Assembly: GCA_049584655.1 (NCBI GenBank)
Contig: JBAUYF010000007.1
Coordinates: forward strand, 27,288 to 91,287
DNA: 64,000 nt
Reading direction: 5' to 3'
From: Thermoplasmata archaeon
GTDB taxonomy: Archaea > Thermoplasmatota > Thermoplasmata > Lutacidiplasmatales > UBA184
The notes under the pieces are model-generated. The model had not been told where the DNA came from. It was given only the letters and a program-made list of their open reading frames with translations, and ran no database searches. Shown piece after piece: positions 4,715 to 22,892 of this stretch. How positions within the stretch are numbered: the first letter of the stretch is position 1; each line of letters opens with the position of its first letter. The position numbers and the translations under genes are program-made.

Positions 4715-4794
4715 TGGTCTCCTCCGTCGTCGGCGAGATTATTTCACCGGGAGAATTCCCGCATCGGTCGGCTGACTCGGGATGGGGATGCGGT

Positions 4795-6740: not shown

Positions 6741-6839
6741 AAGCGAGTCGAGGGCGTCGAGAGCTGAGTGCTCCCGTTTGGCGAACCCACCGCCGATAAC
6801 GGGATCGAGCTCCTGCCCAGGCGGATGTAATGAGGGTCG

Positions 6840-7550
6840 GTGGCTCCTACCTATGGAAGTTCAATGCCGGCCTCATGTCCCGATTGCGGTGCCCAGGTGG
6901 AGTACGTCTCCGAGCCGGCACGCCTCCTCTCCGGCACCTGCGGGTCCTGCCATCACGAATTCACGATTGTGGGGGGTCACCTCGACGTCAAGCCCGCACC
7001 GGATGCCCGGTCTCGGGCGGAGGTCGGCGCCGAGGGGCCAGCGGCTCCGCAAGGGCCGACCTGCCCAGATTGCGGCGCCCCGACCGCGTTGAGGGTGACC
7101 TCCTCGCGTTCGATTGAGTCGGTCTGCTCCGACTGCGACTCGACGCGTATGTTCGTTCTATCGGACGGAAGTCGACCACCTGCGCGCGAGCCCCGATCCG
7201 ATCGGGGTTGGCGCGATGACGGGGATCGTCGAGCGCCTTCGGCCAGTCGTCCCTGCCGGCAATGCGGCGCCCCGCTGACTTTCACCACGGGTGAAGACGG
7301 GCTGTTGACGGGAGAATGCACCCAGTGCGGGAACCGGTTTACGCTCCCCGCACGCCGTGACTCAGGGGGCCCGCGCAACGATCGCCGCGAGCGCCCGTCA
7401 TTCGGACGCAGCCGTCCCTCCGGATATTCCGGGGGTCGGAACTTCTCCCGCGGCTCGGGGCGACCTCCATCCTACGAGCGAAGGGGCCGACGGAACGATT
7501 CGTCGGACGATGCGGAGGCGCCTCGCCGTCGGCGGCCGCGGCGCGAGTAG
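6840..7550 (+). CDS. triple zinc-ribbon protein with Arg/Gly-rich C-terminal tail
   Basis: Three repeats of the module CPxCG-x17/18-CxxC: C13/C16-C34/C37, C75/C78-C96/C99 and C139/C142-C160/C163. Followed by an RG/RS-rich tail ending RRRRPRRE. Confidence 0.6.
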   Translation: MAPTYGSSMPASCPDCGAQVEYVSEPARLLSGTCGSCHHEFTIVGGHLDVKPAPDARSRAEVGAEGPAAPQGPTCPDCGAPTALRVTSSRSIESVCSDCDSTRMFVLSDGSRPPAREPRSDRGWRDDGDRRAPSASRPCRQCGAPLTFTTGEDGLLTGECTQCGNRFTLPARRDSGGPRNDRRERPSFGRSRPSGYSGGRNFSRGSGRPPSYERRGRRNDSSDDAEAPRRRRPRRE

Positions 7551-7660
7551 GGCTTCTCTGGAATTCGCGAAGGGTCGTTGCGGGATTCTTGGTCGATTGA
7601 CCCGTGCTGAAGGAGCAGGACGCTCGGAGCGGGACCTGTCTGCCGACCGGGTGGTTCGGT

Positions 7661-8566
7661 CTAAGTGAATTCTTCCCGAGCGAAGAAATAGAGACCCGCC
7701 AGCGCCGTGAGCACGAAGTACCCCGCCATGATGATTAGCCCCTCTAGGTAGGTGGGCGCGTACGTCGTGACGGTCGTCGTTCGGCCCCGCGGGCCGGTCA
7801 TGGTGGAGGTCGACACGTGCGCCGGTAGGGTGGAAAGGAAGGGATACGTGATCACCTGCTGGGCATACGTGATGATGAACCACGGTTCGATCTTCACGAG
7901 CACGGTGATTAGTTCTTCGATGATCGAGAATCCGAACAAGAACAAGACGGCGACGACGAGGACGGCGTAGAGGCTGTTCTTGAACATGGAACTAAAGAGA
8001 AAGACAGCGCCGAGCAGGGCGAGCAGGTAGAGCACCGCGATGGCGAAGGATTCGAAGAGCGCTACGGGAAACGCATTCACCCCGAGGTAGACGGCTCCGT
8101 TCGCGAGGAGGATCGCGAGATAGACTACCACGGCAACCAGGGAGGCGATCAGAGCCGCGAGGAACTTGCCCACATAGACGCTGTCGCGACGGATCGGGAG
8201 GCCCATCAGGAAGTATCCGGTCTTGTTCTGGAACTCCCCTGCGATCGCGTCCCCGCCGAAGATGATCCCGGCGAAGATGATCACGACCGTCACCCCGCCG
8301 CCCCAGAACGACCCATAGAAGGCATCGGAACTCGCGGTCAACCCCGACACCGTGGAGGAGCCATGGAAGTACGCCAGTACGAACGAAATGATGGCACCGA
8401 TCGCCGCCACGATTGCCATCATCAGCACGAACCGACGGGATCGGAGATAGTCCCTGAGTTGGTACCGAGAGAGGATCAGGGCCTGCGTCAGCGTGTCGGG
8501 AACTGAACCGATCGCCCCGTCCCCTCGAGGCGCGTTGGCGATCGCCGTAGCCGACGGAGTGCTCAT
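7661..8566 (-). CDS. ABC-2 type transporter permease
   Basis: 301 aa with 6 TM segments. Its ATG overlaps the stop of the upstream ATPase gene by 4 nt (8563-8566). Confidence 0.75.
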   Translation of the reverse strand: MSTPSATAIANAPRGDGAIGSVPDTLTQALILSRYQLRDYLRSRRFVLMMAIVAAIGAIISFVLAYFHGSSTVSGLTASSDAFYGSFWGGGVTVVIIFAGIIFGGDAIAGEFQNKTGYFLMGLPIRRDSVYVGKFLAALIASLVAVVVYLAILLANGAVYLGVNAFPVALFESFAIAVLYLLALLGAVFLFSSMFKNSLYAVLVVAVLFLFGFSIIEELITVLVKIEPWFIITYAQQVITYPFLSTLPAHVSTSTMTGPRGRTTTVTTYAPTYLEGLIIMAGYFVLTALAGLYFFAREEFT

Positions 8567-9510
8567 GCGTCCCCCACCGAGATCTCACGCAAGTAGACCT
8601 CCTCCAGCGCCGATCGCGATTCGCGGAAACTGAGAAGCCCGAGATGGAGCGCTGCGATCTTTTCGAGCAGTACGCTCTGCTCGGCCCGTCCCCCTTTGAC
8701 TTGCAACGAGATCCGTTGAGAAGCGACGCGCGTGACGCCGGCCACCTCTGGCAGCCCGGCGATCGTGCCGTTTAGGACCGCGTCGTCTATGGGGGCAGCG
8801 AACTCGGCCTCGACCGATTGGACCCCGCCGCCTAGACGTCGCGTGACGTTCTCCAGGGAGTCGGCGAAGAGTAACTTCCCATGGTCGATGAGCGCTACGT
8901 CGTCACAGACGTCGACAACTTCGCTGAGGATATGACTGCTCATGAAGATCAGACGATGACCCTTCTTGAGACCACGAACGATGTCGCGGACCTCCGCCAT
9001 TCCCCGAGGGTCGAGCCCAGTGCTCGGCTCATCGAGGATTACGACCTCGGGGTCCGAAAGGAGCGCCGCGGCGATGTTGACGCGCTGTTTCATGCCCTTG
9101 GAGAAGCGGCCCACTTTGTGGGTGGCCCATTCTGACATCTTCACTTCCTCCAAGACGATAGCCGTCCGAGAGCGGATCTCCTCCGGCCGCATCCCGCGCA
9201 GGGCGCCGCTCATCTCGAGAGCCTCCCGGGGGGAGAGCGACGGGTAGATCTCGGGGGTTTCCACCAAGTCGCCGCAGGACGCGAGGGCCCGTCGACGATC
9301 CGCTTGGACGGATACACCGTTGATGAAGGCCTCCCCTTCGGTCGGAAAAATCAGGTCCGTGAACATCTTGAGGGTGGTGGTCTTTCCCGCCCCGTTCGGC
9401 CCTAGGAATCCCATACATCGGGCTCCTTCGACCTTCAGATTGAGATGGTCTAGCGCCGTGAACGCGCCGAACCGCTTGGTCAGATCTATCGCTTGAACGC
9501 TCGGTGACAT
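8563..9510 (-). CDS. ABC transporter ATP-binding protein (ABC-2/DrrA-like)
   Basis: Walker A GPNGAGKTT, signature FSKGMKQRV, Walker B VVILDEPSTGLD and H-loop SSHIL. Start set at internal ATG 9510 (MSPSVQAIDLTKRFG). Confidence 0.9.
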   Translation of the reverse strand: MSPSVQAIDLTKRFGAFTALDHLNLKVEGARCMGFLGPNGAGKTTTLKMFTDLIFPTEGEAFINGVSVQADRRRALASCGDLVETPEIYPSLSPREALEMSGALRGMRPEEIRSRTAIVLEEVKMSEWATHKVGRFSKGMKQRVNIAAALLSDPEVVILDEPSTGLDPRGMAEVRDIVRGLKKGHRLIFMSSHILSEVVDVCDDVALIDHGKLLFADSLENVTRRLGGGVQSVEAEFAAPIDDAVLNGTIAGLPEVAGVTRVASQRISLQVKGGRAEQSVLLEKIAALHLGLLSFRESRSALEEVYLREISVGDA

Positions 9511-9774
9511 AGTAGCCCAGTCGCGGGGGTTGGGTCCCGGGAGTTGAAAAGCGTAGCTGCCTATGCGCAGCGCAACCCCGCACGAAGCGCTACTCGCGGG
9601 GCACAAATTCCTCCCGGATCACGATTCCTGGACCACCAGTCGAAATAGCCCATCGCGTCAACCGCCGCGAGCTACGGTTGGCGGTCTTGTCCGAAAAGTA
9701 GAGGATCCCGGGCCCGGTGGATCCGCGGGCGGTTACCACCGCCCAGCTCGGCCGCGCGGGAGTTTCCCGGTAAT

Positions 9775-10185
9775 CTAGCGGAAGTGGCGCGAAACCGCGA
9801 TCAGGTAAATCGCCAGGATCAACGCCACGATGAATCCGAATGTGATGAACGCTCCGGCCAATCCGTAGGACACCATCTCAAAGATCAGGAAGATGAGCGT
9901 AAGGACCAGGGCCCATAGACGCAGATGCCAGAGACCCACCGCGAGGCCGAGAATAATCAGGCCCACGATGAGCACGATCAGCCCGCCAATGACCCCCGAG
10001 AACCCGAAATGCCCGAACAGGTTCCCTCCTCCGTACTTGACCCCAATCGAGGAACCCACGGCCAGGAAGAGGCCCAGCAGGAACACGACGAACCCATAGA
10101 TCCCGATCAACACGGCGAGGATTGCCACGCCCAAAGGTCGGGAGGGCCGGGTCTCGTAGACCGCCGTGGTGGGTTCTGCCGTCAT
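9775..10185 (-). CDS. four-TM membrane protein, paralogue of 31263..31724
   Basis: 136 aa. Shares LW-x3-WAL...E...Y...YL(I/L)AV(S/R)R(H/Y)F C-terminal architecture with the 153-aa protein at 31263..31724. Confidence 0.6.
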   Translation of the reverse strand: MTAEPTTAVYETRPSRPLGVAILAVLIGIYGFVVFLLGLFLAVGSSIGVKYGGGNLFGHFGFSGVIGGLIVLIVGLIILGLAVGLWHLRLWALVLTLIFLIFEMVSYGLAGAFITFGFIVALILAIYLIAVSRHFR

Positions 10186-10350
10186 TGAGTCTTAACCTCT
10201 CGAATCGTTGGGAACCCGAGGGGGCATATGAACCCTCGTTTTGGTGTATATTTCGAAAATCTTGCCGCCGAGCGGGTAATCCGGCCTTCTCTTAGGCGAT
10301 TATGTCAGAGGTTCGGCTTCCAAACCGTCTGTTCGGAGGGATTGTATAGG

Positions 10351-11670
10351 TTATACGTCATGGGCGCGCGACGGAGAGTCAGATCTGACTTTCTGGGCCT
10401 CCGCCGGGGTCGTGATACCTCCGGATGCGGCCGCGATCGCAGCGGAGGTAACATACGAAAGGACGAAAATGGTCGCCATCACCGTAACGATCCCGAGAAG
10501 CTCTACCCCCATCTGCTGAACGGCTGAAATCCCACCCCCGAAGAAGAGGCCATTTGGTAGGTTCGGGAACCCCGACCCTTGGGCGAAAGCATGCTGCGCG
10601 AACAGGGGAATCATGAGAATGCCGAACAGTCCACCGACCAAGTGACCCGGAATCAGGCCGACGGGGTCTGAAAACCATCGGACTCGTGAGACCAGGACCT
10701 CCGCGTAAACAAAGATCGGGCCGCACACCAATCCCAGTATCAGGGCGCTCGCGGGCGATACGAAGCCCGCAAGTGGGGTGATGACGATGAGCCCCATAAG
10801 AGTTCCATTGACGGCCCAGGGGAGGTCCGCTGAGCCGCCCCGGCGGAAGAACTGGACCGCCAATACAGATACCATCCCGGCGGCCGCTGCGATGAAGGTC
10901 GTCAGAACGACTACGATCGCTTCCGAATTGAACTGTAGGACGCTCCCCGGATTGAAGCCAAACCATCCAACCCAGAGAAGAAGGATCGATAGGGCGAGCC
11001 ACCCCGGACGGATAGACAATGGCGTTTGCGGGGAGGTAGTATAGCCTCGAGCTCTCTCTTCTCGCCAGACTTGGGCGAGGATGCCCAGGCCAGCGGCGCC
11101 GGCGGCCCCATGAACGACGAGGCCACCCGCAAAATCAACCATACCGATTTTGGCGAGCCATCCCGTCGGATTCCAGATCCAGGCCGCGGGGATCGTCCAA
11201 ATGATCCCAAAGTAGACCACCGAGTAGATCGCGAACGAGGTCAGCTTGACCTTACGCAACACGACGACGCCTACGAGCGCCAGAGTTACGGATGCGAATG
11301 CCGTTTCGAAGAGGAAGTAGGTCCCCATCGCCAGCCCGGTGCCGAAGTAGGCCGGCTGCATCGACCACCAAGGCGTATCGAAAGCGTTCGAGTAGTTCGG
11401 AGAGAATCCTCCCAGGAGGAGCCCGGGACTGTACACAGGGTTTCCGATGAGCCCCGACAGGGTGGGGGCGAACCCGAGGTTGAACCCCACGATCGCCATG
11501 ACGACGAGGGCGAGCCCGCTCATCAGCAGAGTTTTGAGCAGACTTCGGTCCAAGGATTCCCCTAGCTCACCGACCTCGAGGAAGCCGACCGCAAGGGTCA
11601 TGCAGAAGACCAGGAGCGCCGCGATGAGAACCCAGAGATTGTTGTCTAGGTAGGTCGGGTCGAATAACAT
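10351..11670 (-). CDS. amt: ammonium transporter Amt
   Basis: Typical Amt sequence (DFAGGLVVHGAAGAAGL, WFGFNPGS, 11 TM). Start placed at ATG 11670 (MLFDPTYLDNNLWVLIAALLVF). No glnK/PII gene adjacent. Confidence 0.9.
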   Translation of the reverse strand: MLFDPTYLDNNLWVLIAALLVFCMTLAVGFLEVGELGESLDRSLLKTLLMSGLALVVMAIVGFNLGFAPTLSGLIGNPVYSPGLLLGGFSPNYSNAFDTPWWSMQPAYFGTGLAMGTYFLFETAFASVTLALVGVVVLRKVKLTSFAIYSVVYFGIIWTIPAAWIWNPTGWLAKIGMVDFAGGLVVHGAAGAAGLGILAQVWREERARGYTTSPQTPLSIRPGWLALSILLLWVGWFGFNPGSVLQFNSEAIVVVLTTFIAAAAGMVSVLAVQFFRRGGSADLPWAVNGTLMGLIVITPLAGFVSPASALILGLVCGPIFVYAEVLVSRVRWFSDPVGLIPGHLVGGLFGILMIPLFAQHAFAQGSGFPNLPNGLFFGGGISAVQQMGVELLGIVTVMATIFVLSYVTSAAIAAASGGITTPAEAQKVRSDSPSRAHDV

Positions 11671-11835
11671 CGTTGGATTCCTTGTTCTCGTCGGCTCGAA
11701 GACCGATCCGGGTCCAGACGCCCCGTGAAACACCGAATCGTCCCCTTTTTGAGCCCTCGCTTCGAGGCGAGGGGCCGCACTGCGGCTCTAAGGTTCCGGA
11801 CTGCGGAGCTCGCCGGGGAAAAATATCGGGCCGGC

Positions 11836-12429
11836 TCAGTCGGCCGATGCGTGGATCTGGGAACCCCAAGAGATGAGGGCGATTTCCGCGCCGATTCGCG
11901 GTGCGTCTACTTGCCGTATGCGTTGGAGGAGGTCTTTGCGCGCGGCGGGTGTGAGGACGGTGTCGAGCGTCCGATAGACCTCGTCCTCTCGTCCGTGGTC
12001 CTCCTCGATGCGATCGGCTTCCTTCCGAACCAGGTCGGCCATCTTGAGGGCGTCCGGGCCGGCGGGCGGTTTTCCTTCCTTCATCAACTGTCGGATCTGA
12101 CGCTCGAACTCCTCGGGCTTCCGCTGCTCCTTAGAGCAGCGTTCGAGAAACGCTTCCAGCTCCACTCGGCCGAGCTGGGCCAGCGCATCCTGCACCATGC
12201 GGTCGTTTACGAGGTGGGTTTCGATCAAGTAGCGATGATGTACGTCGAGCAAGCGCTCGATCCGCTTGAGGTCCATGCGCTTCGAGCGTTGAAGCACCTC
12301 GGCCGATTCTCGCAGACGGGCGGCCATCACATAGAGCAAGGTGTGCTGCCGATACATTTCGAGGATCAGGTCATCCTTTGAAAACCCCTCCGGCCCGCGG
12401 TGGGCTTGGGCGGAAGATGAGGCAGGCAC
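11836..12429 (-). CDS. hypothetical all-helical protein (possible hemerythrin-like metal-binding domain)
   Basis: 197 aa, charged and helical, with His/Glu-rich motifs (HHRYLIETH, EEDHGREDE). Family assignment is tentative. Confidence 0.5.
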   Translation of the reverse strand: MPASSSAQAHRGPEGFSKDDLILEMYRQHTLLYVMAARLRESAEVLQRSKRMDLKRIERLLDVHHRYLIETHLVNDRMVQDALAQLGRVELEAFLERCSKEQRKPEEFERQIRQLMKEGKPPAGPDALKMADLVRKEADRIEEDHGREDEVYRTLDTVLTPAARKDLLQRIRQVDAPRIGAEIALISWGSQIHASAD

Positions 12430-12494
12430 GACCGCAATAGGAAATCTGGAGTATTTGGCAAAGAGCTTCGTCGGCGAGAGGCCGGGGTCTCGAC

Positions 12495-13421
12495 CTATAG
12501 CGTGAAATGCGACGTCCGCAGCGATTCGATCTGGTCCGAGATGATGGGCCGACCGAGCCGATCGCGAATTCGCCGACGCTGCCGACGCCGCTGCGCGCGT
12601 ACTGCGGCCGTCCAGGCGGCGACGTCAGGCGCGTCCCGTTCGGGTCGAATCCATTGGATCACCTGATCCAGGTCGTGGAGCTTCCCCAAGTCCCGCTGCA
12701 GTCGGACGAGCTGCTCCTGCGCGTCTACGGGACGAGATGTAGCGAGGGCTTCGCGGAAGAGCCGCATTTCGCGGAGCTCCTTGCGCAAGTCATGCAATCG
12801 AGGGGTCGATACGCGGGCGACGGCTCGGTCGAGCGATCGGGAGACCTCGTCCACGCGTCGGAGGAACTCGGCCTCTGTTTGCAGCATCCAGGACCGCGGG
12901 TCCGAGGCTTCGTGTGCTTCGCGGACCAGACCCCGCAACGCGGCGAACGTCTGATCGTCCGTCAGCGCTTGCGCGAACTTGGCCAGCTTGCGTCGACCGG
13001 CGCGAGCCTCCTTCCTAAGTCGCCCGCGCGCGTTCTGAATGCCCTCGGGGCCGATCGATCGCGAATTTCGAGGGGCTGACGGCAGAACCGAAAGACCGAC
13101 ATCCCGATCACGCACTTGCCCGCACAGTCGAGCAAACGTGTTCACCCGCGCCTGGACCTCCTTCGCGAGCTTTCGCGATTCCGGCGAAATTGAGGCACGC
13201 CAGGGGCGGAACAAGACTGACAGGCGACGCAGGTCCCGGTGCAACACGTGGAGCGGCTCCTCGCCAATGGTGGGACGGATGGCCAATGCCGCCACGCGGG
13301 ACTCGATCGACCCGACCAACGATTCGTACCGTTGGAAGGCGCGTTCTTGATCGTCCGCAGGAATCATGGGAGTTCGCCGACCCCTTTCCCTTTCATTTAA
13401 CTTGCTCTCGAGACTTCTCAA
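12495..13421 (-). CDS. CHAD domain-containing protein
   Basis: 308 aa helical protein with repeated H-x-L/F-R-x-x-L/A-R motifs (LHVLHRDLRRLSVLFR, RLHDLRKELREMRLFREAL) typical of CHAD domains. Confidence 0.6.
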   Translation of the reverse strand: MRSLESKLNERERGRRTPMIPADDQERAFQRYESLVGSIESRVAALAIRPTIGEEPLHVLHRDLRRLSVLFRPWRASISPESRKLAKEVQARVNTFARLCGQVRDRDVGLSVLPSAPRNSRSIGPEGIQNARGRLRKEARAGRRKLAKFAQALTDDQTFAALRGLVREAHEASDPRSWMLQTEAEFLRRVDEVSRSLDRAVARVSTPRLHDLRKELREMRLFREALATSRPVDAQEQLVRLQRDLGKLHDLDQVIQWIRPERDAPDVAAWTAAVRAQRRRQRRRIRDRLGRPIISDQIESLRTSHFTL

Positions 13422-13797
13422 GGCGCAGAGCTGGTCAAATCGTGGTATAACCCCAGCAAGAGAGTTGCGGTAAACTTACCGGACCTCGACGATCGAATGG
13501 CGGATGAACCGAGACGCCGCGCCGTCGACCGATTCGACCAAATTCCTAGTAAAGGTCGCGCCAACTGACGGAAAATTAATCGTGTAGCTCACAGCGCTAC
13601 ATTTGAGGATTGATACTTGTCATGTTGTGCCGTGGCTCGGGGTTAATTGAGCCAATCCGGATTCCACTTTCCCAGTCAGCGTCTTCGCTAAATACCCCTT
13701 CGGAGCTGAACAATCGAGGCAAACCATGGACACGGAGGGAGACAATGCTGCAGATGCAGATAGCCCTGCAGAACGTAGCCATCCGGCGAGCCCATGC

Positions 13798-14055
13798 GGA
13801 CGCTCGCTTCCGCGGTCTTCAGGAGTACCATAACCTGGAGACCCCGCGCGAGGAGTCCTTGTGGCTCGTCGCGCAGGCACGAACCAACCGAACGACGGTG
13901 CCCGCACGGGAATCCGGCGAGTCCCGGTCACTCCGGACTCGGCTTGCGGAGTTCCTCCGCATCGGGGTCTGACACCGAACCTGCCCCTAGGGCACCGTCG
14001 AACCCTTTCCCCCGATTACACCGGGGGAACTACTGAAACCGGCTTAGGAGCGTCC
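13798..14055 (+). ncRNA. candidate structured RNA, possibly RNase P RNA (unconfirmed)
   Basis: Lies in a 620-nt gap with no protein-like frame. A perfect 8-bp closing helix pairs GGACGCUC (13798-13805) with GAGCGUCC (14048-14055). A 10-bp hairpin follows at 13814-13845. GAGGAGUCC resembles CR-I, and ACUGAAACCGGCUUA (14032-14046) resembles CR-V ACAGAAnnCGGCUUA. G-U pairs favour the plus strand. The P4 pairing is imperfect. Confidence 0.35.
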
Positions 14056-14520
14056 TTTCGGAGTCCTCTTTCTCTTCAGACGGGCCTTGGCGGCTCGCTC
14101 CTTACGCTTCTCAGCGGCCGTGGGCCATCGGAAGAGCTCGATCCAATTTCCGTCGGGATCTTTGACGTCCGCCACCCATCCCTGGCTCACTTTGAGGTCG
14201 ACCTCAGTAGGACGCGCCCCGTGACCAAGAAGACGGTGATATTCCGCCTCCAATCGGGCGGCCGAAACACTTCCGAGGAGGAATCCAATGTGATCGAGTC
14301 CCTCCCCTGCAGCGTACGGGGCGGCGAATTTCGACTTGCTCGGGTACCAGTTGAGTTCCAGCCGTTGGTGCGACTTGGGATCCTCTAACAGTACCCAGAT
14401 TCCAGCGCCCCACTTTCTCAAGTCGCCTCGAGTCACCTCCCGCAGTCGAAGTCCTCTCGTGTAGAATCGGAGCGATCGCGCCAGGTTCGTCACTCGGATT
14501 CCGGTGTATCGCAGCGGCAT
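14044..14520 (-). CDS. VOC / glyoxalase family protein with Lys/Arg-rich C-terminal tail
   Basis: IRVTNLARSLRFYTRGLGL-like start, LELNWYP, DHIGFLL and DPDGNWIELF. Paralogue of 645..1055. Tail is AAEKRKERAAKARLKRKRTPKGRS. Confidence 0.8.
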   Translation of the reverse strand: MPLRYTGIRVTNLARSLRFYTRGLRLREVTRGDLRKWGAGIWVLLEDPKSHQRLELNWYPSKSKFAAPYAAGEGLDHIGFLLGSVSAARLEAEYHRLLGHGARPTEVDLKVSQGWVADVKDPDGNWIELFRWPTAAEKRKERAAKARLKRKRTPKGRS

Positions 14521-14808
14521 GGAGGCTCGAACGACTCGCTCAATTCAAGGTTTCCGCCTTAGGCCTGGCGCCCAAATTGGATTCACGAGAGATCCGTGGA
14601 GTTCGCCGGACGCCGCCTGGGAGATGTGTAGGGCATACAGTTCAATTCGCAAACTCCGGGGTGAGTGGGGAATCGAGCTTATGGGAGGTTTTGGCCCATC
14701 TCAGACGACTAGAACCGTTTCTTGTCAACCAGGTCTCCGGCAGCCTCGACATCGTCGCCATTGGAGAGCTAGGTCTATCTTGGTGAAAGTTTTTGATTTT
14801 GTGGGACG

Positions 14809-15144
14809 ATGGAGTTCCAAGCGACGCGCGCCCCGATCCCCGCGGAGGGGATTATCTGCCCCGGGTGTGGGGAGTCGATTCATCGGAAAACCGTCGCCTT
14901 TCAGTTGTCTGGCTTGCCTTTGATCCTCCGCTCCACAATGGGCGAGGCACGATACCACGGCATTGAGTGCCTTCGGGTCGACGCCCGCCGACGTTACCGT
15001 GCCCAGTTCGAGTTCAAGTCGAGCAATCGATTCGGCTGGCAGGCGCATGCGGCTACGAACGATGAGCGGCTCCTCACTCTGAAGCTGCTGTCCGAGTGGG
15101 CCGAGGCGCGCCGGACCGCTGAAACGAAGTTGCCCGCGCAATAA
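14809..15144 (+). CDS. hypothetical small Cys-containing protein (possible TRASH/zinc-binding)
   Basis: 111 aa with CPGCGESIH...YHGIEC and high GC3 in this frame. Competes with antisense ORF 14725..15234. Confidence 0.3.
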   Translation: MEFQATRAPIPAEGIICPGCGESIHRKTVAFQLSGLPLILRSTMGEARYHGIECLRVDARRRYRAQFEFKSSNRFGWQAHAATNDERLLTLKLLSEWAEARRTAETKLPAQ

Positions 15145-15267
15145 CGCCCTCCTCGGATTGTGAACGACCGCCCGCTCCATCGGAGTACGGTCCGCGAGAC
15201 ATCCGCCTAGACTCAAGTAACACTGCGGTCCCACCCCGAGGAGGCGGGGAGTTCACGTTCCAGCGCT

Positions 15268-16098
15268 ATGCCGTTTGTCGATGTCCATGGAGCACGTCTG
15301 TACTACGAGGTCCGGGGCGACGTAGGCGACCCGATCGTACTGGTCCATGGTTCCTGGGTCGACCACACGACCTGGAACCTAGTCGCCCCCCGGCTCTCGG
15401 AGTCATTTCAGTTATTGCTCTACGATCGACGGGGGCATAGTCAGAGCGGGCCTACCAGCGTGCGGGGCACGATCGTCGATGATGCGCTTGATCTTGCGGC
15501 TTTGCTCGAAAGTACCGGATTGTATCCCGCGCATGTGCTTGGTAGCTCCATGGGCGGTTCGGTCGTGCTGCGACTCGCGGAACGTCGGCCCGAATTATTC
15601 CGAAGTCTACTCGTCCACGAACCTCCCGTGTATGACCTCATCCGGAACGATCCGGGTTGGGCAGCCCAAATAGCCGCCCTTCGCGTGGATTTCGAACGAA
15701 TCGCCGACCAAATTCGCCGTGGTCAGATCGAAGAGGGGGCGCGGGATTTCTGGGAGACGTTCGGGGGCCCAGTCGGCAGCTGGGAGCGCCTCAGGCCGGA
15801 GCTCAAGTCGACTTTCACCGCGAACGCTCCGAGCTGGCTCGAAGAATTCGAGGATCCGGGTGCGACCAGCGCCGATCCGGTCGCGCTCAGCGAATTTCTC
15901 ATGCCCGCGTTACTAACGACGGGAGCGAACTCGGTCGCTTGGCAGCAGGAGATTTCGAACCGCTTGGCCGCGCTGTTTCCGAACGTGACCCGTCAAACAC
16001 TACCGAATACCGGTCACTTGCCGCACCTGACCAACCCCGACCTCTTTCTCGGGGTGGTTCAGGCGTTCTGTCTCGAGAGGACGGTTCCCGTCTCGTAA
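15268..16098 (+). CDS. alpha/beta hydrolase fold protein
   Basis: VLVHGSW, YDRRGHSQS and the nucleophile elbow GSSMGG, with a C-terminal GHLPHL catalytic His region. Confidence 0.85.
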   Translation: MPFVDVHGARLYYEVRGDVGDPIVLVHGSWVDHTTWNLVAPRLSESFQLLLYDRRGHSQSGPTSVRGTIVDDALDLAALLESTGLYPAHVLGSSMGGSVVLRLAERRPELFRSLLVHEPPVYDLIRNDPGWAAQIAALRVDFERIADQIRRGQIEEGARDFWETFGGPVGSWERLRPELKSTFTANAPSWLEEFEDPGATSADPVALSEFLMPALLTTGANSVAWQQEISNRLAALFPNVTRQTLPNTGHLPHLTNPDLFLGVVQAFCLERTVPVS

Positions 16099-16131
16099 CA
16101 ACAACAGAACACGCGCGTCGATCGAGGGGGG

Positions 16132-16968
16132 CTAATTCCTGGATTCTGGCTTCGACATTCGAAACTCATCGAGCAGAGGCATGACTCCCTTGCCCAACCA
16201 CTGGCCTCCGTCGACGGCGAGTACTTGGCCGGTAATGTAACTCGCTTTGGGACTCACGAGAAAGCGGACCGCCTCGGCTACTTCATTGGGAGTTCCGAAA
16301 CGGCCCAAGGGGATTCCCGCTTCGACCGATCGAACCGTCGACTCCGAGGTCCAAAGTTGCTGGTCCGTTCCCGCCGTTCGAATCGGACCCGGCGCCACCG
16401 CATTGACCCGAATTCCGTATCGGGCCCACTCGACGGCTAATGTGCGCGTGAGCGCGAGAACTCCCGCCTTCGCGGCGGCCGAGTGAGCCGTCCCGGGTCC
16501 GGCCATCCAAGCATACGAAGCGACGATATTCACGATCGAGGCGCTAGGCGATGTTTTCAAGAGCGGAAATGCGGCCCGGGAGCACAGGAAGGTTCCGTCC
16601 AGCACGATCCCTACGACGGCCCGCCAGCCATTGGGCGTGATCGATTCTGCTGGGGCCACAAAATTTCCGGCGGCGTTGTTGATCAGTAGATCCAGACGGC
16701 CGTACTCCTGTTGGGTAGAGCGGACCATCGACTCCACTTGCTCGGCAATTCGGACGTCGGTCGGGACCTCGAGTACGCGCGCCCCCGCAGAGCGTAGCTG
16801 TCGCGCGCCGACATCAAGATGCTTCGCGGATCGGCTGGCAATGACGAGATCGTAGCCGTCCTGGATCAGCGAAGCGCCGATCGCCAACCCGAGTCCGGTA
16901 CCACCCCCGGTGATGACGGCAACGGGTCGATCTCGAAGTACGTCGGACTGAGGGGCCGGCGCTGGCAC
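16132..16968 (-). CDS. SDR family oxidoreductase (2,4-dienoyl-CoA reductase-like)
   Basis: VAVITGGGTGLGLAI Rossmann motif, NNAAG, and an S...AAKAG catalytic region. Confidence 0.9.
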   Translation of the reverse strand: MPAPAPQSDVLRDRPVAVITGGGTGLGLAIGASLIQDGYDLVIASRSAKHLDVGARQLRSAGARVLEVPTDVRIAEQVESMVRSTQQEYGRLDLLINNAAGNFVAPAESITPNGWRAVVGIVLDGTFLCSRAAFPLLKTSPSASIVNIVASYAWMAGPGTAHSAAAKAGVLALTRTLAVEWARYGIRVNAVAPGPIRTAGTDQQLWTSESTVRSVEAGIPLGRFGTPNEVAEAVRFLVSPKASYITGQVLAVDGGQWLGKGVMPLLDEFRMSKPESRN

Positions 16969-17046
16969 TTCGGTCCGAGACCCGCGACGCCTAAAAACGC
17001 TCCTGCAACGTGCGCTCTAATCCCCCGAGCCAATCACCTAGTCCCG

Positions 17047-17505
17047 ATGTCGTCCGAATCAGCCATCCCCAATCCCGATGCGCTCCGCCTGCGAGAGCGG
17101 CTAGACCTTGCCCTCGAGCGCATCTCGCACCTGCCGGCGTTCGACGGAGTCTACCTCGGTCCATGGTGGGAATTGCCCAGCCTATCTCATCAACTGGGGA
17201 TGGTCGGATGGAAGCGAGCGGTACTTCGACGTGTTGCCGGAGGAGGGGCGGAGCATTGGGGCCATTTGTTCCTGCTCTACTCAGCCGTTGGCCAAACCGC
17301 GGGGGTGGAACCGGAGTCCGATCCCCGAGTGCGATCGCCTCGATACGGCGCCGTACGGAAGGTCGGAGAAATCTCGAAGGTAGCGACGTTCCTGGTCCGA
17401 GCGAGTCACCCGGATGGTTCTCCCTTGCTCGATCTGTTTGCGGAACAGTCGCTGGAGCTTCTGCAGGGCGAAGGGAATTCCTCAACGGTCAGCGAGGTCG
17501 AATGA
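17047..17505 (+). CDS. hypothetical protein
   Basis: Internal ATG of ORF 16819..17505 (MSSESAIPNPDALRLRERL...). The upstream part overlaps the SDR gene antisense and is unlikely to be coding. Confidence 0.45.
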   Translation: MSSESAIPNPDALRLRERLDLALERISHLPAFDGVYLGPWWELPSLSHQLGMVGWKRAVLRRVAGGGAEHWGHLFLLYSAVGQTAGVEPESDPRVRSPRYGAVRKVGEISKVATFLVRASHPDGSPLLDLFAEQSLELLQGEGNSSTVSEVE

Positions 17506-17512
17506 GGAGGAC

Positions 17513-17875
17513 CTAGCGTGTCCCCTTCCCACTTTGCTCCGGGTTGACCGGGCCGGCAAACAACGCGCGAAGGGCCTCCACGTCCTCCGAGCGCAGTCCG
17601 CTCCCCAACACGCCGTCCCACCTACGAATCGGCTCCCCGTTTCGGAAAGCGACCATCGTCGGAACCACATCGATCGAAAAAAGCTCCCAGAGCGGCGAGT
17701 CCGTATCGGTCAAATCGCCGATAGCCGATTGGAAATCCTGTGAGTGTTCGAGAGCCGCGAAAGGCCTCAAAAACGCTCGACAGAACGGACACCAATCCGC
17801 TGAGAAGCAAACTCCCCAACTGCCCTCCCGTCGAAGGCGCTGGCCGTCAAAGTCCGCCGCGCTCAGTCGTTCCAC
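17513..17875 (-). CDS. thioredoxin-fold protein (WCPFC active site)
   Basis: 120 aa. FSADWCPFCRAF is a CxxC redox motif in thioredoxin context, with cis-Pro region VPTMVAF. Confidence 0.75.
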   Translation of the reverse strand: MERLSAADFDGQRLRREGSWGVCFSADWCPFCRAFLRPFAALEHSQDFQSAIGDLTDTDSPLWELFSIDVVPTMVAFRNGEPIRRWDGVLGSGLRSEDVEALRALFAGPVNPEQSGKGTR

Positions 17876-18005
17876 AGCGAGTTATCGCGAACGTCTCCAT
17901 AAGCTCGACCTGGACGCGGGACGACGACGCTCGCAGCCCTGGCCGATGTGGAAGCCACAGGGGAGCGGAGCGGGGGCTCGAGAATCAGCAGGTACTTGAG
18001 CCTCT

Positions 18006-18935
18006 TTGAATTGCATCCCACCGAGGGAATCCGAGATGACTTGGCCCGTTCCGATCGAGCGTAAGACCGAGCGAATGTTTCCGCGTCCGTTATCGGGGCG
18101 GATCGAACGTCATCCCTTTCCCAGCCGAGTCTTGCAAGACAACCCGCTTGGGGATCCGGCAGATCGCGAACTTCCGGTCTATATCCCTCCGTCCGGAAAG
18201 ACCGAGGGCCGTCCGCTTCTGGTCCTTCTCTCCGGTTACACAGGGGCGGGATGGATGCATTTCGAACGGTCCCGATGGTTAAACGAGACGCGTGTCGTCC
18301 TTTTAGACCGCTTGATCCGCGCCGGCCGGTTGGCGGAATCGGTCTTGGTCGCCCCGGACTGTTTGACGACACTCGGAGGCAGTCAGTATCTGAATTCGAC
18401 GGCGACCGGACAATACGAGGATTACCTCGTCCAAGAGATCCTTCCGTGGGTCCGCGAAAAATATCACACCGGACCAATGGGCGTCCTCGGAACTTCCAGC
18501 GGAGGATACGGCGCCTTGGTGATGGGCCTTCGCCACCCCGACCTATTTCCTGCCGTGGCGTCGAATGCCGGAGATTGCTACTTCGAGTACGGTTACTTGC
18601 CCGAGTTTCCCATTGACGCGCGCGAGATCCGACGGTCGGGGGGACCGGATAAGTTCCTCGCCCGAATCTTTGAACAACCCATCAGTGACTTCGGACCAAG
18701 AAACCCACTCGCAATCACGCTCGAGCAGGTGGCCTACGCTTCCTGCTACTCGCCGGTCGAGGCTGAGCCGGGGCGTTTCGACCTTCCGTTTGATCTCGAC
18801 TCGGGGGAGCTCGACCTTCCGGTTTGGGCGCGATGGCTGGCCTGGGATCCGGCCCGGATGATCGAGACGGATCGGTACCGAGAGGCGCTGCGCAAGTTAC
18901 GCTACGTGTACGTAGACGGCGGTACGCGAGACTAG
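18006..18935 (+). CDS. putative esterase (esterase D / enterochelin-esterase-like), terminated by in-frame TAG before the catalytic His region
   Basis: LLVLLSGY and nucleophile elbow GTSSGGYGAL. The reading frame continues in-frame after TAG 18933-18935 for 52 codons to TGA 19092-19094, encoding the expected family C-terminus (see findings). Start may be ATG 18036 or 18075. Confidence 0.75.
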   Translation: MNCIPPRESEMTWPVPIERKTERMFPRPLSGRIERHPFPSRVLQDNPLGDPADRELPVYIPPSGKTEGRPLLVLLSGYTGAGWMHFERSRWLNETRVVLLDRLIRAGRLAESVLVAPDCLTTLGGSQYLNSTATGQYEDYLVQEILPWVREKYHTGPMGVLGTSSGGYGALVMGLRHPDLFPAVASNAGDCYFEYGYLPEFPIDAREIRRSGGPDKFLARIFEQPISDFGPRNPLAITLEQVAYASCYSPVEAEPGRFDLPFDLDSGELDLPVWARWLAWDPARMIETDRYREALRKLRYVYVDGGTRD

Positions 18936-19214
18936 TATTTTCTCGATCTCGGGGCCCGGGTATTCGCAGCGCGGGCGAAACGGCAGGGAGTCACCGTCGA
19001 CCATCAAGAGTTCGACGGCGTGCACGGCGATGGCGGTCGGCGTTACGAAGCGATGTACACGGGCGTCCTCCGCGCTTTGGGCTTCCCGTCTTGAAACTCC
19101 GATCTCTCAAACCGACGCAAGACCTAAGAGCCCGAGAATCGACCGTAGGGGCGTAATGCCGTCCGATCACGGAGGTTCGACGACTTTGCCCGGCGCCGAG
19201 GGGAGGGAACGGCG

Positions 19215-19367
19215 ATGATTCAGGACGGCAAGATCGTCTGTGATGAGTGTAAGTCGGTAATCACGCGCGTCACCGTCCTGCCCCCGGAAGGATGGCCCAA
19301 ACTCCACTCTTTGTGCTCGAAATGCTATGCCGCGGCACGCGACCGCGCCGAGCCACGGCTCACGTAA
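19215..19367 (+). CDS. small zinc-ribbon protein (50 aa)
   Basis: MIQDGKIVCDECKSVITRVTVLPPEGWPKLHSLCSKCYAAARDRAEPRLT. CxxC...CxxC pattern, with GGGAGGG about 8 nt upstream of the ATG. Below the ORF-track length cutoff. Confidence 0.45.
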   Translation: MIQDGKIVCDECKSVITRVTVLPPEGWPKLHSLCSKCYAAARDRAEPRLT

Positions 19368-19382
19368 GCCGTCGCCCTGCGA

Positions 19383-19934
19383 TTATGAGGTCGCGTCGAC
19401 GACCGCCGCCCCGAGCGATGCGGCTTCGTCTTCGATCCACGCGAGCACGACGAAATACCAGCTCATGGCGAGCAGTAGCGGGAGTTCCGGATGGGTTCGA
19501 CCGAGCGGGTCAATCGACACGAGGGCCCCCACGAGCCGACCGGATTGACGAACCGGCTCGATCTCGAGTAACTTCGTCTCTTTCGAGTCGCAAAGATTCC
19601 ACGCCGGCACCAAGAGGCCCGCGCGTCGAAAGGAGTAGGATGCGCCCCCCCGGATTTCTAAGAGATGAGACCGCGAATGGACGGTCATCCGGGCGAGGTC
19701 GACGTTCTGCCCCGGTCGACGCGCGGTGAGATGTGGGTTGAGAAAGCCGGAGCGCTTGAGCGTCCACTCGTCCCCGACGGTCGCCACATGCGCGAGCGAC
19801 CCAATGTGCTTTTCCCAACTCATGACCGCGACGGTCGCGTCGCCGGCCTTTAACGCGTACTCGTGCCGGTCTTCCGTCGATCGGACCCAACGAACGGTGT
19901 TGAGGTCGGCGGCAGCGAAGGCAGTGAGTTCCAT
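19383..19934 (-). CDS. hypothetical protein
   Basis: 183 aa, beta-rich soluble N-part and a hydrophobic C-terminal segment (LPLLLAMSWYFVVLAWI). No family recognised. Confidence 0.5.
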   Translation of the reverse strand: MELTAFAAADLNTVRWVRSTEDRHEYALKAGDATVAVMSWEKHIGSLAHVATVGDEWTLKRSGFLNPHLTARRPGQNVDLARMTVHSRSHLLEIRGGASYSFRRAGLLVPAWNLCDSKETKLLEIEPVRQSGRLVGALVSIDPLGRTHPELPLLLAMSWYFVVLAWIEDEAASLGAAVVDATS

Positions 19935-20021
19935 CGGGGCGGCCCACCGTCGCGCCCGTTCTTAAGGGAACCGGCCGGGTTGCAGCCGATTCGGATTTTC
20001 CGAGCTCGCATGAGCGCGGAA

Positions 20022-20738
20022 TCACGATTTTGACGGCGAACTCCGACGAAGACCATCCAGGTCGTGCTTCAACAGATCGAGCTCATGGACCGCCACATCG
20101 CTTTCACCTTCCGAAGCGAGCGGAGTGAGGGGAATGGCCGCCCGGGCCGGAGGGGGAGGAGGCGGCGGAGGAGGCAAGAACGAAGTCGCCGGGCCGGCCA
20201 CGGATGCCGCCTTCACGGAGACCCCCCGTACGCCCCCCGGGTCCAACCTTCGAGACTTCGAAGAAATCACCGCCGGAGTACGGGGAGGGGGTGACGGAAG
20301 TGTCCGTAGGGATCCCGCGGAGGTCGATTTTCTTGGCGGGGCCGTTGGAGTTTCCTCCGGTTCATCCTCCTCGGCGAAATAGGAAATGACTCCGCCAACA
20401 CCGGCCACGATTCCGAGCACCAAGAACAAGATCCACAGATGGAAACCGCCGGCACCCACCGTCGGCTCGAGCGACCAGGTGAGAAGGGCTCCGACCAGCA
20501 GGATCCAGGATGGGAAGAGCAGCGGGAAGCAGCCCCCGATGCGGCGGAAGAAATCATTCGGGGCGCGCCGTTCTGCTGGATCCGGTCGACCATGTACATC
20601 GGGAAGGGGCCGACCGGTAACGCGGGGGGCGGGCGGGTCCGGGGAGGACGCAGGCGTCAGGGCGTCTTCGTCCCAATCGGGGGCATACATGCTGTGGGGA
20701 GCCATCGGCGCAATCTGGAATAATTCGAGGAGGGCCAA
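20022..20738 (-). CDS. proline-rich membrane protein (hypothetical)
   Basis: 238 aa with two central TM helices flanked by Pro-rich disordered arms. Includes nine consecutive Pro codons at 20148-20174. Confidence 0.5.
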   Translation of the reverse strand: MALLELFQIAPMAPHSMYAPDWDEDALTPASSPDPPAPRVTGRPLPDVHGRPDPAERRAPNDFFRRIGGCFPLLFPSWILLVGALLTWSLEPTVGAGGFHLWILFLVLGIVAGVGGVISYFAEEDEPEETPTAPPRKSTSAGSLRTLPSPPPRTPAVISSKSRRLDPGGVRGVSVKAASVAGPATSFLPPPPPPPPPARAAIPLTPLASEGESDVAVHELDLLKHDLDGLRRSSPSKS

Positions 20739-20742
20739 TTCA

Positions 20743-21111: not shown

Positions 21112-21122
21112 ACTCCGGAACG

Positions 21123-21488: not shown

Positions 21489-21765
21489 AGTCCCTCCTCA
21501 GCTACCGCGTGCGCCTCCGGCTCGGGAGGATATAAACCGTTCACGCTCGGCCCCGACGGCATGTCGCATTCTAGCTCTCCGAATGACATTCGATCCGAGC
21601 GAGTTAGTGTCTAGCCCCGGAGCAAGGAAGCCTCCCCTTGCCCAAATCGGGAATCTCGACGAACAGTCGCGCCCGAATACGCAACTGTCGTGGCCCATCC
21701 GTCGTAGGAAAGGTCGGAAATCCGAGGGCAAGGTTTTTCATCTCGGCCCGGACTCCAAACGCCGC

Positions 21766-22775: not shown

Positions 22776-22892
22776 CGGCCGGGGGAGCCCAGCCCCCTCT
22801 TAAGAGCCGCCTCGCCCTTTACCTCGACCTATCAGGACTCACGAGTTGCCTTGGGTAACTCCGTCCGGCCCTTAGCACGAGCGAGGAATACG

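What the first reader, a model, noticed from the sequence alone, without database searches (positions are those of the whole stretch)
13441..14055. 620-nt non-coding gap containing a helix-rich RNA candidate with RNase P-like CR-I/CR-V motifs
**Setting.** No frame between the CHAD gene (start 13421) and the VOC gene (stop 14044) looks protein-like. The 5' half of the gap is locally AT-richer.

**Structure of the 3' half (13798-14055), plus strand, in order.**
- a perfect 8-bp closing helix, GGACGCUC pairing with GAGCGUCC
- a 10-bp hairpin, GGUCUUCAGG-loop-CCUGGAGACC, containing a U-G pair
- GAGGAGUCC, compare RNase P CR-I GAGGAAAGUCC
- several perfect hairpins: GUCGU/ACGAC, GGUGCCC/GGGCACC enclosing about 90 nt, GCGGAG/CUCCGC and CCCCCG/CGGGGG
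- ACUGAAACCGGCUUA at 14032-14046, compare CR-V ACAGAAnnCGGCUUA, followed 1 nt later by the closing strand

This is the order expected for RNase P P2-P3-CR-I ... P18-CR-V-P2'. The G-U pairs would become A-C mismatches on the opposite strand, which supports the plus strand.

**Weak points.**
- The P4 pairing between the CR-I-like and CR-V-like elements is poor, about 4-5 bp.
- I could not recognise the specificity-domain motifs.

It may therefore be a different or novel structured RNA.
Basis: partly seen in the sequence, partly recalled or inferred. Interest (0 to 1): 0.5.

Follow-up and report, generated by a model that had tools for sequence, protein, structure and literature searches.

The report
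Small archaeal gene with structured mRNA
The supposed RNase P-like RNA is really a small, lineage-restricted 75-codon gene of soil Thermoplasmata archaea whose messenger RNA is unusually well folded and conserved even at silent codon positions, so the RNA itself probably matters as well as the protein.

Summary
Rfam finds no RNase P or other family. The closing helix and the CR-V-like motif are absent from relatives. The CR-I-like GAGGAGUCC is the codons Glu-Glu-Ser.

The gap is not non-coding. An ORF at 13745-13972 (+), 75 aa, has an invariant GGAGGG Shine-Dalgarno and a TATA-like box with fixed spacing. Nine further homologues turned up, all from Thermoplasmata MAGs or soil metagenomes.

Coding is supported:
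- dN/dS is lowest in this frame.
- Substitutions are conservative.
- The stop position is kept as TGA, TAA or TAG.
- Only a 3-nt indel occurs inside the ORF.

Silent sites are also strongly constrained: pS is 0.03-0.30 in codons 1-46, against 0.56-0.78 in three flanking genes. The consensus fold is plus-strand specific (alignment z -6.1 against -1.9). The 3' domain covaries; its hairpin holds the stop codon in the loop.

Best reading: a small protein gene whose mRNA is a conserved structured RNA, possibly dual-function. Protein and RNA roles are unknown.

The parts
13582..13601 (.). Conserved palindrome GTGTAGC-N7-GCTACA about 100 nt upstream of the TATA-like box. The arms are nearly invariant and the spacer is variable. 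Its role is unknown; it could be a protein-binding site.
   Evidence: The alignments show it in all relatives that have this region, except L018. It is unique in the window. Changes in the arms are not compensated.
13686..13694 (+). Putative archaeal BRE/TATA element, CGCTAAATA.
   Evidence: It is invariant in 8 of 8 aligned relatives and also present in the distant L018. In the window and L018 the 21-nt spacer to the conserved GAGGC is the same length but not conserved in sequence. That it acts as a promoter is inferred.
13716..13744 (+). Inferred 5' UTR, with the transcription start inferred at about 13716-13720. It holds an invariant Shine-Dalgarno GGAGGG at 13734-13739 and an invariant out-of-frame upstream AUG at 13726.
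   Evidence: Mean pairwise identity is 0.87, and the stretch GGAGGGAGAC is invariant. Most neighbouring genes have their TATA-like box about 30 nt from the ATG and no Shine-Dalgarno.
13745..13972 (+). 75-codon ORF with stop TGA at 13970-13972. It encodes a basic, predicted three-helix protein with no known family.
   Evidence: Gene callers call it. Eight sequence clusters turned up among 5.8 billion proteins, plus one distant 96-aa relative. Frame-specific dN/dS is 0.41-0.52 (codons 1-46) and 0.70-0.72 (codons 47-76), against about 1.0-1.4 in the other plus-strand frames. Column-permutation tests give P = 0.014, 0.005 and 0.005. The stop position is kept as TGA, TAA or TAG. The only indel inside the ORF is 3 nt. 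AlphaFold2 gives pLDDT 66. There is no Pfam, NCBIfam, PADLOC or PDB match.
13774..13881 (+). Long imperfect hairpin (5' domain) inside codons 10-46.
   Evidence: RNAalifold predicts it. The structure conservation index is 0.99. Alignment-shuffle z is -5.66 on the plus strand and -0.65 on the minus strand. Single-sequence z is -3.2 to -6.2 in all 8 relatives. Covariation is not significant here, apart from two compensatory pairs in L018. Third codon positions are 82-88% identical.
13894..13999 (+). 3' domain. The closing helix is 13894-13902 / 13991-13999. Hairpin A is 13918-13941. Hairpin B is 13946-13960 and is not universal. Hairpin C is 13962-13978 and carries the stop codon in its loop.
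   Evidence: Independent MFE folds of 8 relatives give a closing helix enclosing hairpins A and C; hairpin B is missing in L010 and L013 and L014 departs. z is -4.0 to -6.6 in seven of them and -1.9 in L014. On the CM-realigned alignment, 9 pairs changed on both sides against 4.3 +/- 1.5 in shuffles (0 of 500) and 0-3 in slid controls. The closing helix is 94% paired with 4 of 9 pairs covarying.
14001..14014 (+). Conserved 3' UTR motif AACCNUUUC followed by a pyrimidine tract that is complementary to the Shine-Dalgarno region.
   Evidence: A286, A287, C288, C289, T291-T293 and C294 are invariant in A2. RNAalifold pairs GGGAGA with UUUCCC. The Shine-Dalgarno region is predicted mostly paired in all relatives, but its partner varies.
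14009..14055 (+). It overlaps the VOC stop codon at 14044-14046 and the last VOC codons.
   Evidence: The stretch cannot be aligned between relatives. The helices are 42% and 53% paired, which is background level. Relatives carry T4-T6 runs 60-90 nt after the stop, probably terminators.

Best explanation
The region is an independent plus-strand transcription unit, divergent from the CHAD gene and (in most relatives) convergent with the VOC gene.

- **Promoter and leader.** A TATA/BRE-like box (CGCTAAATA, 13686-13694) should start transcription near 13716-13720. This gives a 29-nt leader with a canonical Shine-Dalgarno, GGAGGG.
- **Product.** The 75-codon ORF (13745-13972) is translated into a basic, helical protein that belongs to no known family.
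- **RNA.** The mRNA itself is under selection. A 108-nt hairpin lies within codons 10-46. A multi-branched 3' domain spans codons 50-75, the stop codon and the first 30 nt or so of the 3' UTR. Both are conserved, and silent sites are frozen.
- **Proposed mechanism.** The fold most likely gates translation or stability of this mRNA. The Shine-Dalgarno would be masked by the conserved pyrimidine tract after AACCNUUUC or by an internal CCCUGC. The invariant hairpin loop would be recognised by a protein or RNA partner. Alternatively the RNA has a second, regulatory role as a dual-function RNA.

**Shown:** the ORF and its conservation, the coding signature, the constraint on silent sites, the plus-strand consensus fold and the covariation in the 3' domain.
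**Inferred:** the promoter and transcription start, the terminator, Shine-Dalgarno masking, and any partner or function.
For: **Coding**
- Pooled dN/dS is 0.41 (codons 1-46) and 0.70 (codons 47-76) in this frame, against 1.0-1.3 in the other plus-strand frames.
- Column-permutation tests: synonymous fraction 0.394 against 0.306 (P = 0.014); BLOSUM score of differing codons 1.46 against 0.63 (P = 0.005); zero stops (P = 0.005).
- Start ATG, or TTG in L018, and the GGAGGG Shine-Dalgarno are kept.
- The stop is kept as TGA, TAA or TAG. Only a 3-nt indel occurs inside the ORF, while 1-2-nt indels begin right after it.

**RNA-level constraint**
- pS is 0.03-0.30 in codons 1-46, against 0.56-0.78 in VOC, CHAD and p197 for the same genome pairs.
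- Third codon positions are 0.82-0.88 identical.

**Structure**
- Single-sequence z for 13798-14055 is -6.0, beyond all 298 control windows.
- Alignment-shuffle z for the whole transcript region is -6.14 on the plus strand and -1.85 on the minus strand. For the 5' hairpin it is -5.66 and -0.65.
- The 3' domain shares a closing helix and hairpins A and C in the 8 relatives.
- Nine covarying pairs against 4.3 +/- 1.5 in shuffles, 0 of 500.

**Context**
- The element is single copy and syntenic, in genomes whose flanking proteins are 46-90% identical.
Against: - No expression, transcription-start or proteomic data exist; everything is computational and rests on 9-10 sequences from one clade.
- The protein-level signal is moderate. 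dN/dS is 0.6-1.05 against the distant L018. AlphaFold2 gives only pLDDT 66.
- The 5' hairpin has no significant covariation, because it hardly varies.
- The Shine-Dalgarno/3'-tract helix is invariant, so it cannot be tested by covariation, and its predicted partner differs between relatives.
- The alignment used for the best covariation count (A8) was fitted to the structure, which biases the count towards it.
Confidence: 0.6

Rival explanations
1. It is a purely non-coding structured RNA of about 300-345 nt. On this reading the ORF, the 'Shine-Dalgarno' and the start codon are by-products of a purine-rich strand of a terminal helix in GC-rich sequence.
For: - Nucleotide conservation is blocky and covers all three codon positions and the 5' UTR.
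- dN/dS against L018 is about 0.6-1.05.
- The 5' and 3' ends are predicted to pair, as in stable non-coding RNAs.
- Compensatory changes in L018 alter amino acids: GL to EI and TP to FR.
- The protein model has low confidence.
Against: - The coding signature is specific to this frame.
- Replacements in the variable C-terminus are conservative: L/I, R/K, F/Y.
- The stop position is kept with three different stop codons. The only indel in the ORF is 3 nt, while 1-2-nt indels start right after the stop.
- ATG changes to TTG, which keeps a valid start.
- No Rfam family matches.
Confidence: 0.17
2. It is an ordinary small hypothetical gene. The helices would be incidental to GC-rich coding sequence. 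The low silent-site divergence would have another cause, such as the overlapping 35-codon upstream ORF in the +1 frame, codon bias, or recent gene conversion.
For: - A gene is called here in every relative's contig that covers the locus.
- An out-of-frame upstream AUG at 13726 and a UAA at 13831-13833 are kept in all 9 sequences.
- The 5' hairpin shows no significant covariation.
- Some other windows of the 64 kb also fold well, with z down to -4.2 to -5.4.
Against: - The upstream-ORF frame has dN/dS 1.37, so it cannot explain the constraint. The constraint also continues through codons 31-46, beyond the upstream ORF.
- The open antisense frame shows no coding signal, and the mirrored antisense frame has stops.
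- The conserved block ends sharply at codon 46 while synteny is old, which argues against recent transfer.
- Fold significance at the alignment level is plus-strand specific.
- The 3' domain covaries.
Confidence: 0.18
3. It is an RNase P RNA, or a reduced relative of one.
For: Only a resemblance from memory in the window sequence: GAGGAGUCC to CR-I, ACUGAAACCGGCUUA to CR-V, and an 8-bp closing helix.
Against: - No RNase P covariance-model hit even at E <= 10.
- The CR-V-like motif and the closing helix are not conserved.
- The CR-I-like motif is three codons and varies at wobble positions.
- The element was found only in a narrow clade, whereas RNase P RNA is near-universal.
Confidence: 0.01

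Closest known systems
Dual-function RNAs and small-protein-encoding sRNAs. Bacterial examples include SgrS/SgrT, RNAIII/hld, SR1/SR1P and AzuCR; archaeal examples are the spRNAs of Methanosarcina mazei. References are taken from the titles and abstracts listed (PMC12612679, PMC8915982, PMC11456600, bioRxiv 10.1101/2025.10.28.685009).
   Same: It is a short stand-alone transcript that carries a small ORF and also shows selection at the RNA level. The evidence is structure and silent-site constraint beyond what coding requires.
   Different: No base-pairing target or RNA-level function has been identified. The ORF (75 aa) fills most of the transcript and is longer than most such peptides. There is no sequence or Rfam relationship to any described example.
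Type I toxin mRNAs of the hok/sok type, in which a 5'-3' fold-back masks the ribosome-binding site (from my own knowledge).
   Same: The mRNA is highly structured and conserved at the nucleotide level. Long-range pairing is predicted between the Shine-Dalgarno region and a 3' pyrimidine tract.
   Different: The protein is hydrophilic and Arg-rich with no transmembrane segment. No antisense RNA or promoter was seen. The fold-back helix is invariant and so untestable. Type I systems are not established in archaea.
Archaeal RNase P RNA (Rfam RF00373 and related models).
   Same: Similar overall size, high GC content, many helices, and short strings that resemble CR-I and CR-V in this one genome.
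   Different: No covariance-model match, no conserved P4, CR-V or closing helix, and no specificity domain. The element overlaps a conserved ORF and is confined to a narrow clade.

Membership tests
RNase P RNA (archaeal types A, M and T) | Match to the Rfam covariance model at or near the gathering score. | tested here: not met
   There are 0 hits at gathering score in the window and in 8 related loci. No RNase P model appears at E <= 10 on 13300-14200 or 13700-14070.
RNase P RNA (archaeal types A, M and T) | Conserved CR-I and CR-V strands that form the P4 helix. | tested here: not met
   The CR-I-like GAGGAGUCC is the codons E-E-S and varies at wobble positions. The CR-V-like 14032-14046 has no counterpart in any relative and overlaps the VOC stop codon.
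RNase P RNA (archaeal types A, M and T) | Conserved terminal or closing helices (P1/P2). | tested here: not met
RNase P RNA (archaeal types A, M and T) | Near-universal presence, with one copy per genome. | tested here: inconclusive
   The element was found only in about 10 sequences from Thermoplasmata MAGs and soil metagenomes. I could not scan the rest of the source genome for a canonical RNase P RNA.
Protein-coding small gene | An open frame with start, ribosome-binding site and stop kept across relatives, and frame-specific purifying selection. | tested here: met
   dN/dS is 0.41-0.52 (codons 1-46) and 0.70-0.72 (47-76), against about 1.0-1.4 in the other plus-strand frames. Permutation tests give P = 0.005-0.014. 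The stop is kept as TGA, TAA or TAG. The in-ORF indel is in frame.
Protein-coding small gene | Evidence of translation from Ribo-seq or mass spectrometry. | not testable with these tools
   No expression data are available for these MAGs.
Dual-function RNA or structured regulatory mRNA | Selection on the RNA beyond what coding requires. | tested here: met
   pS is 0.03-0.30, against 0.56-0.78 in three flanking genes. Plus-strand alignment z is -6.14. The 3' domain covaries.
Dual-function RNA or structured regulatory mRNA | A demonstrated RNA-level activity, such as a base-pairing target or a protein partner. | not testable with these tools
   No target search or experiment was possible.
Type I toxin-antitoxin (hok/sok-like) | A small hydrophobic membrane toxin. 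| tested here: not met
   The sequence is hydrophilic with 12 Arg and no hydrophobic stretch long enough for a transmembrane helix. The model shows three amphipathic helices.
Type I toxin-antitoxin (hok/sok-like) | An overlapping antisense RNA gene. | tested here: inconclusive
   No conserved AT-rich, promoter-like element was seen on the minus strand. Minus-strand folding is not significant. There are no expression data.

The most novel reading that the evidence does not exclude
This would be a previously undescribed archaeal dual-function RNA. The transcript is about 300-345 nt, is restricted to a soil Thermoplasmata clade, and encodes a 75-aa basic protein. On this reading it also acts as a structured RNA in its own right. 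Candidate RNA-level features are a frozen 108-nt hairpin with an invariant loop, a covarying 3' domain that presents the stop codon in a hairpin loop, and a hok-like 5'-3' fold-back that masks the Shine-Dalgarno.
Probability: 0.3. Interest if true: 0.55.

Novelty: new member of a known kind. Interest (0 to 1): 0.35.

Why it matters
Correcting the annotation matters: this is not RNase P RNA and not an empty gap, so it should not be propagated as such.

What remains is a small orphan gene whose silent sites are several-fold more conserved than those of its neighbours. Its mRNA fold is conserved, specific to the plus strand and partly covarying. Few such cases have been described in archaea, where dual-function RNAs and mRNA-structure control of small-protein synthesis are poorly documented. 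If confirmed, it would give a compact natural example for studying how coding and RNA-structure constraints coexist. It would also be a new RNA motif for Rfam.

The clade is narrow, the sample is small and the function is unknown. That keeps the value moderate.

Tried and rejected
**No match found**
- Rfam at gathering score on the window and on 8 loci, and in E-value mode on two sub-regions: only chance hits with E > 2.
- tRNA and tmRNA scan of the window: none.
- Sigma-70 promoter and intrinsic terminator scan: uninformative for an archaeon.
- Pfam, NCBIfam, PADLOC and PDB sequence searches for the 75-aa protein: nothing.
- AlphaFold2 with 9 sequences: pLDDT 66. That is too low for a fold search, so none was run.

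**Attempts to enlarge the family**
- Two profile searches of 5.8 billion proteins and a search with the distant P0009 gave no new members.
- The representative-library search of 1.84 billion proteins gave one distant relative, P0009.
- The genome-contig scan added one locus, L016.
- Two metagenome scans and one viral-contig scan found nothing.

**Readings rejected**
- An antisense gene: the open antisense frame has dN/dS of at least 0.9, and the mirrored frame has stops.
- The 35-codon upstream ORF as a coding gene: dN/dS is 1.37.
- A leader or riboswitch for a downstream gene: the next gene is convergent in most relatives.
- A repeated or mobile element: it is single copy in the window and in every locus that carries it.

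**Inconclusive**
- Covariation in the 5' hairpin: too little variation to test.

Full report
**1. The observation.**
One exception is 'GUCGU/ACGAC', which is only a 4-bp GUCG/CGAC. The 5' half of the gap is AT-richer, with GC 0.52-0.54 against 0.62-0.67.

The segment 13798-14055 folds to -131.9 kcal/mol on the plus strand, z = -6.03 against 200 dinucleotide shuffles. The minus strand gives z = -4.1 to -4.6. I folded 298 control windows of the same length from the same 64 kb. Their mean z is -0.2, sd 1.14, and the most negative is -4.24. The 'helix-rich' observation is therefore real and beyond the local background.

**2. It is not RNase P RNA.**
- No Rfam family reaches its gathering score anywhere in the window or in eight related loci.
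- With permissive filters and E <= 10, on 13300-14200 and on 13700-14070, only chance hits appear (CRISPR repeats, a miRNA, Alpha_RBS, Y RNA; all E > 2). No RNase P model is among them.
Partner-slid controls give 42-48%.
- The 3' strand of the closing helix and the CR-V-like ACUGAAACCGGCUUA lie in DNA that does not align between relatives. They also overlap the stop codon and last codons of the VOC gene.
- The CR-I-like GAGGAGUCC is in frame as Glu-Glu-Ser. It appears as GAAGAGTCC, GAGGAGTTC and GAGGAGCCC in relatives.

**3. The gap is not non-coding.**
An ORF at 13745-13972 (+) encodes 75 aa. GGAGGG lies 6 nt upstream of the ATG. Public gene callers call exactly this gene in six contigs that carry this locus's VOC protein exactly. 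One is a 338-kb contig of a Thermoplasmata archaeon MAG, GCA_049584295.1.

A search of 5.8 billion proteins finds eight clusters, the window's own and seven at 61-86% identity, each 72-76 aa. A scan of 1.84 billion cluster representatives adds one distant 96-aa relative, P0009. A genome scan adds one more locus. Those that carry a source name are Thermoplasmata archaeon MAGs; the others are metagenome contigs, several from soil or forest samples.

Synteny (CHAD gene divergent, small ORF, VOC gene convergent) holds in most. L014 and L015 have a different downstream gene.

**4. Is the ORF coding?**
- Pooled Nei-Gojobori pN/pS in the ORF frame is 0.41 for codons 1-46 and 0.70 for codons 47-76. 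The other two plus-strand frames give 1.0-1.3 (with L018 added).
- A column-permutation test on codons 2-75 gives three results. The synonymous fraction is 0.394 against 0.306 +/- 0.038 (P = 0.014). The BLOSUM62 score of differing codons is 1.46 against 0.63 +/- 0.28 (P = 0.005). There are zero stops (P = 0.005).
- The stop codon keeps its position but appears as TGA, TAA or TAG. The only indel inside the ORF is 3 nt, in L014. Indels of 1-2 nt begin immediately after the stop.
- In L018 the start is TTG at the same position.
- Among antisense frames, the mirrored frame is closed by stops and the open one has a ratio of at least 0.9.

I conclude the ORF is probably translated, at about 80-85%.

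The protein has no Pfam, NCBIfam, PADLOC or PDB relative. AlphaFold2 gives three helices at a mean pLDDT of only 66.

**5. Constraint beyond coding.**
Between the same genome pairs, the three flanking genes (VOC, CHAD and the 197-aa protein) have saturated silent sites, with pS 0.56-0.78. The small ORF has pS 0.13-0.38 overall and 0.03-0.30 in codons 1-46.

Mean pairwise identity at third codon positions is 0.82-0.88 in codons 1-46. The 29-nt leader is 0.87 identical. Identity falls to 0.65 in codons 47-75.

The element is single copy and absent from viral contigs. A 35-codon out-of-frame upstream ORF (AUG 13726 to UAA 13831-13833) is kept in all nine sequences. It has pN/pS of 1.37 and ends before the constrained block does, so it does not explain the constraint.

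**6. Conserved structure.**
RNAalifold on eight sequences (A2) gives three main elements:
- a 3' domain closed by GACGGUGCC/GGCACCGUC (13894-13902 / 13991-13999);
- a helix between the Shine-Dalgarno GGGAGA and UUUCCC downstream of the stop.

Column-shuffled alignments give the following z values:

| Region | Plus strand | Minus strand |
|---|---|---|
| Whole region | -6.14 | -1.85 |
| 5' hairpin (SCI 0.99) | -5.66 | -0.65 |

The 5' hairpin varies too little for covariation: 2 double changes, not significant. In the distant L018, however, GGUCUUCAGG/CCUGGAGACC becomes GAAAUCCAGG/CCUGGAGUUC. That is two compensatory pairs, and they change amino acids.

The 3' domain diverges. Folded independently, each relative forms a closing helix around the last third of the ORF and the stop. 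Seven have z -4.0 to -6.6 and L014 has -1.9. Each of these folds shows a closing helix, hairpin A, and hairpin C at the stop codon, which lies in or beside its loop. The closing helix exists as GACGGUGUC/GACACCGUC in L010 and GGUGACGUCC/GGACGUCGCC in L015.

On a CM-realigned alignment, which leans towards the structure, 9 pairs changed on both sides. Shuffles give 4.3 +/- 1.5 (0 of 500) and slid controls give 0-3. The closing helix is 94% paired, with 4 of 9 pairs covarying. The unfitted MAFFT alignment gives the same direction more weakly.

**7. Transcription unit (inferred).**
CGCTAAATA (13686-13694) is invariant in all eight aligned relatives and is also present in L018. In the window and L018 the spacer to the conserved GAGGC at 13716 is 21 nt, and its sequence is not conserved. 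Most neighbouring genes carry a TATA-like box about 30 nt from their ATG and have no Shine-Dalgarno, so they look leaderless. This gene has a leader and a perfect Shine-Dalgarno.

Relatives have T4-T6 runs 60-90 nt after the stop, which are likely terminators. The window's run is weak.

The Shine-Dalgarno region is predicted mostly paired in every relative, with P(unpaired) 0.03-0.43. Its partner is usually the 3' pyrimidine tract or an internal segment. The AUG stays open. This pairing is a hypothesis only, because the strands are invariant.

**8. Verdict.**
The RNase P interpretation is refuted and the gap contains a gene. The structured RNA is the mRNA of an orphan 75-aa protein, and it shows selection at the RNA level on top of coding.

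The closest known concept is a dual-function or structurally gated small-protein mRNA (context from the titles and abstracts: PMC12612679, PMC11456600). Membership in any specific family is not established. The functions of protein and RNA are unknown.

The evidence is purely comparative, from about 10 sequences of one clade. I score interest as moderate to low (0.35) and novelty as 'new member of a known kind'.

Noticed in passing
window 13582-13601: A palindrome, GTGTAGC-N7-GCTACA, sits about 100 nt upstream of the small gene's TATA-like box. It is conserved in all relatives that have this region except L018. The arms are nearly invariant, the spacer is variable and arm changes are not compensated. 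It is unique in the window. It may be a transcription-factor site shared by the divergent CHAD operon and the small gene.
   Followed up: partly
window 13636-13650 and 13667-13685: Two further conserved intergenic patches were seen: GCTCGGGGTTAAT-like, which is AT-rich at its end and might be a second TATA-like box on either strand, and TTTCC..GTCAGCG just upstream of CGCTAAATA. Neither is explained.
   Followed up: no
window 13726-13833 (+1 frame relative to the 75-aa ORF): An out-of-frame 35-codon upstream ORF overlaps the main ORF. Its AUG lies about 8 nt from the inferred transcription start, which is leaderless-like spacing from the TATA box. Its UAA lies in the loop of the conserved hairpin. 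Both are kept in all 9 sequences. There is no protein-level constraint (pN/pS 1.37), but it could act as a regulatory upstream ORF.
   Followed up: partly
window 12495-13421 (-): The CHAD gene start is probably ATG 13367 (290 aa, as public callers have it) and not TTG 13421. A TATA-like GTTAAATGA lies about 37 nt upstream of 13367. CHAD, a 197-aa protein of unknown function and an ammonium transporter (10351-11733) lie head to tail on the minus strand and may form an operon divergent from the small gene.
   Followed up: partly
window about 33640-33900 (+), 34930-35190 (+) and 26521-26690 (+): These are other windows with unusually stable predicted folds in the background scan, with z -4.2, -3.8 to -5.4 and -5.0. 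The 33640 and 34930 windows lie under long ORFs; 26521 was not looked at. There is no Rfam hit.
   Followed up: no
window 4000-24000 (upstream regions of about 20 called genes): Most genes have a TATA-like box (CTTAAGA, TTGAATT, TTAAATG, CAAATAC) about 30 nt before the start codon and no Shine-Dalgarno. This suggests mostly leaderless mRNAs in this organism. Only a few genes, including the 75-aa gene and a 50-aa gene, have a GGAGG-type Shine-Dalgarno.
   Followed up: partly
L014 566-712 and L015 2578-2916: In the two more divergent relatives the gene downstream of the small ORF is a plus-strand ORF (112 aa in L015), not the convergent VOC gene. The 3' domain and the AACCNUUUCC motif are still present, so they belong to the small gene and not to VOC.
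   Followed up: no
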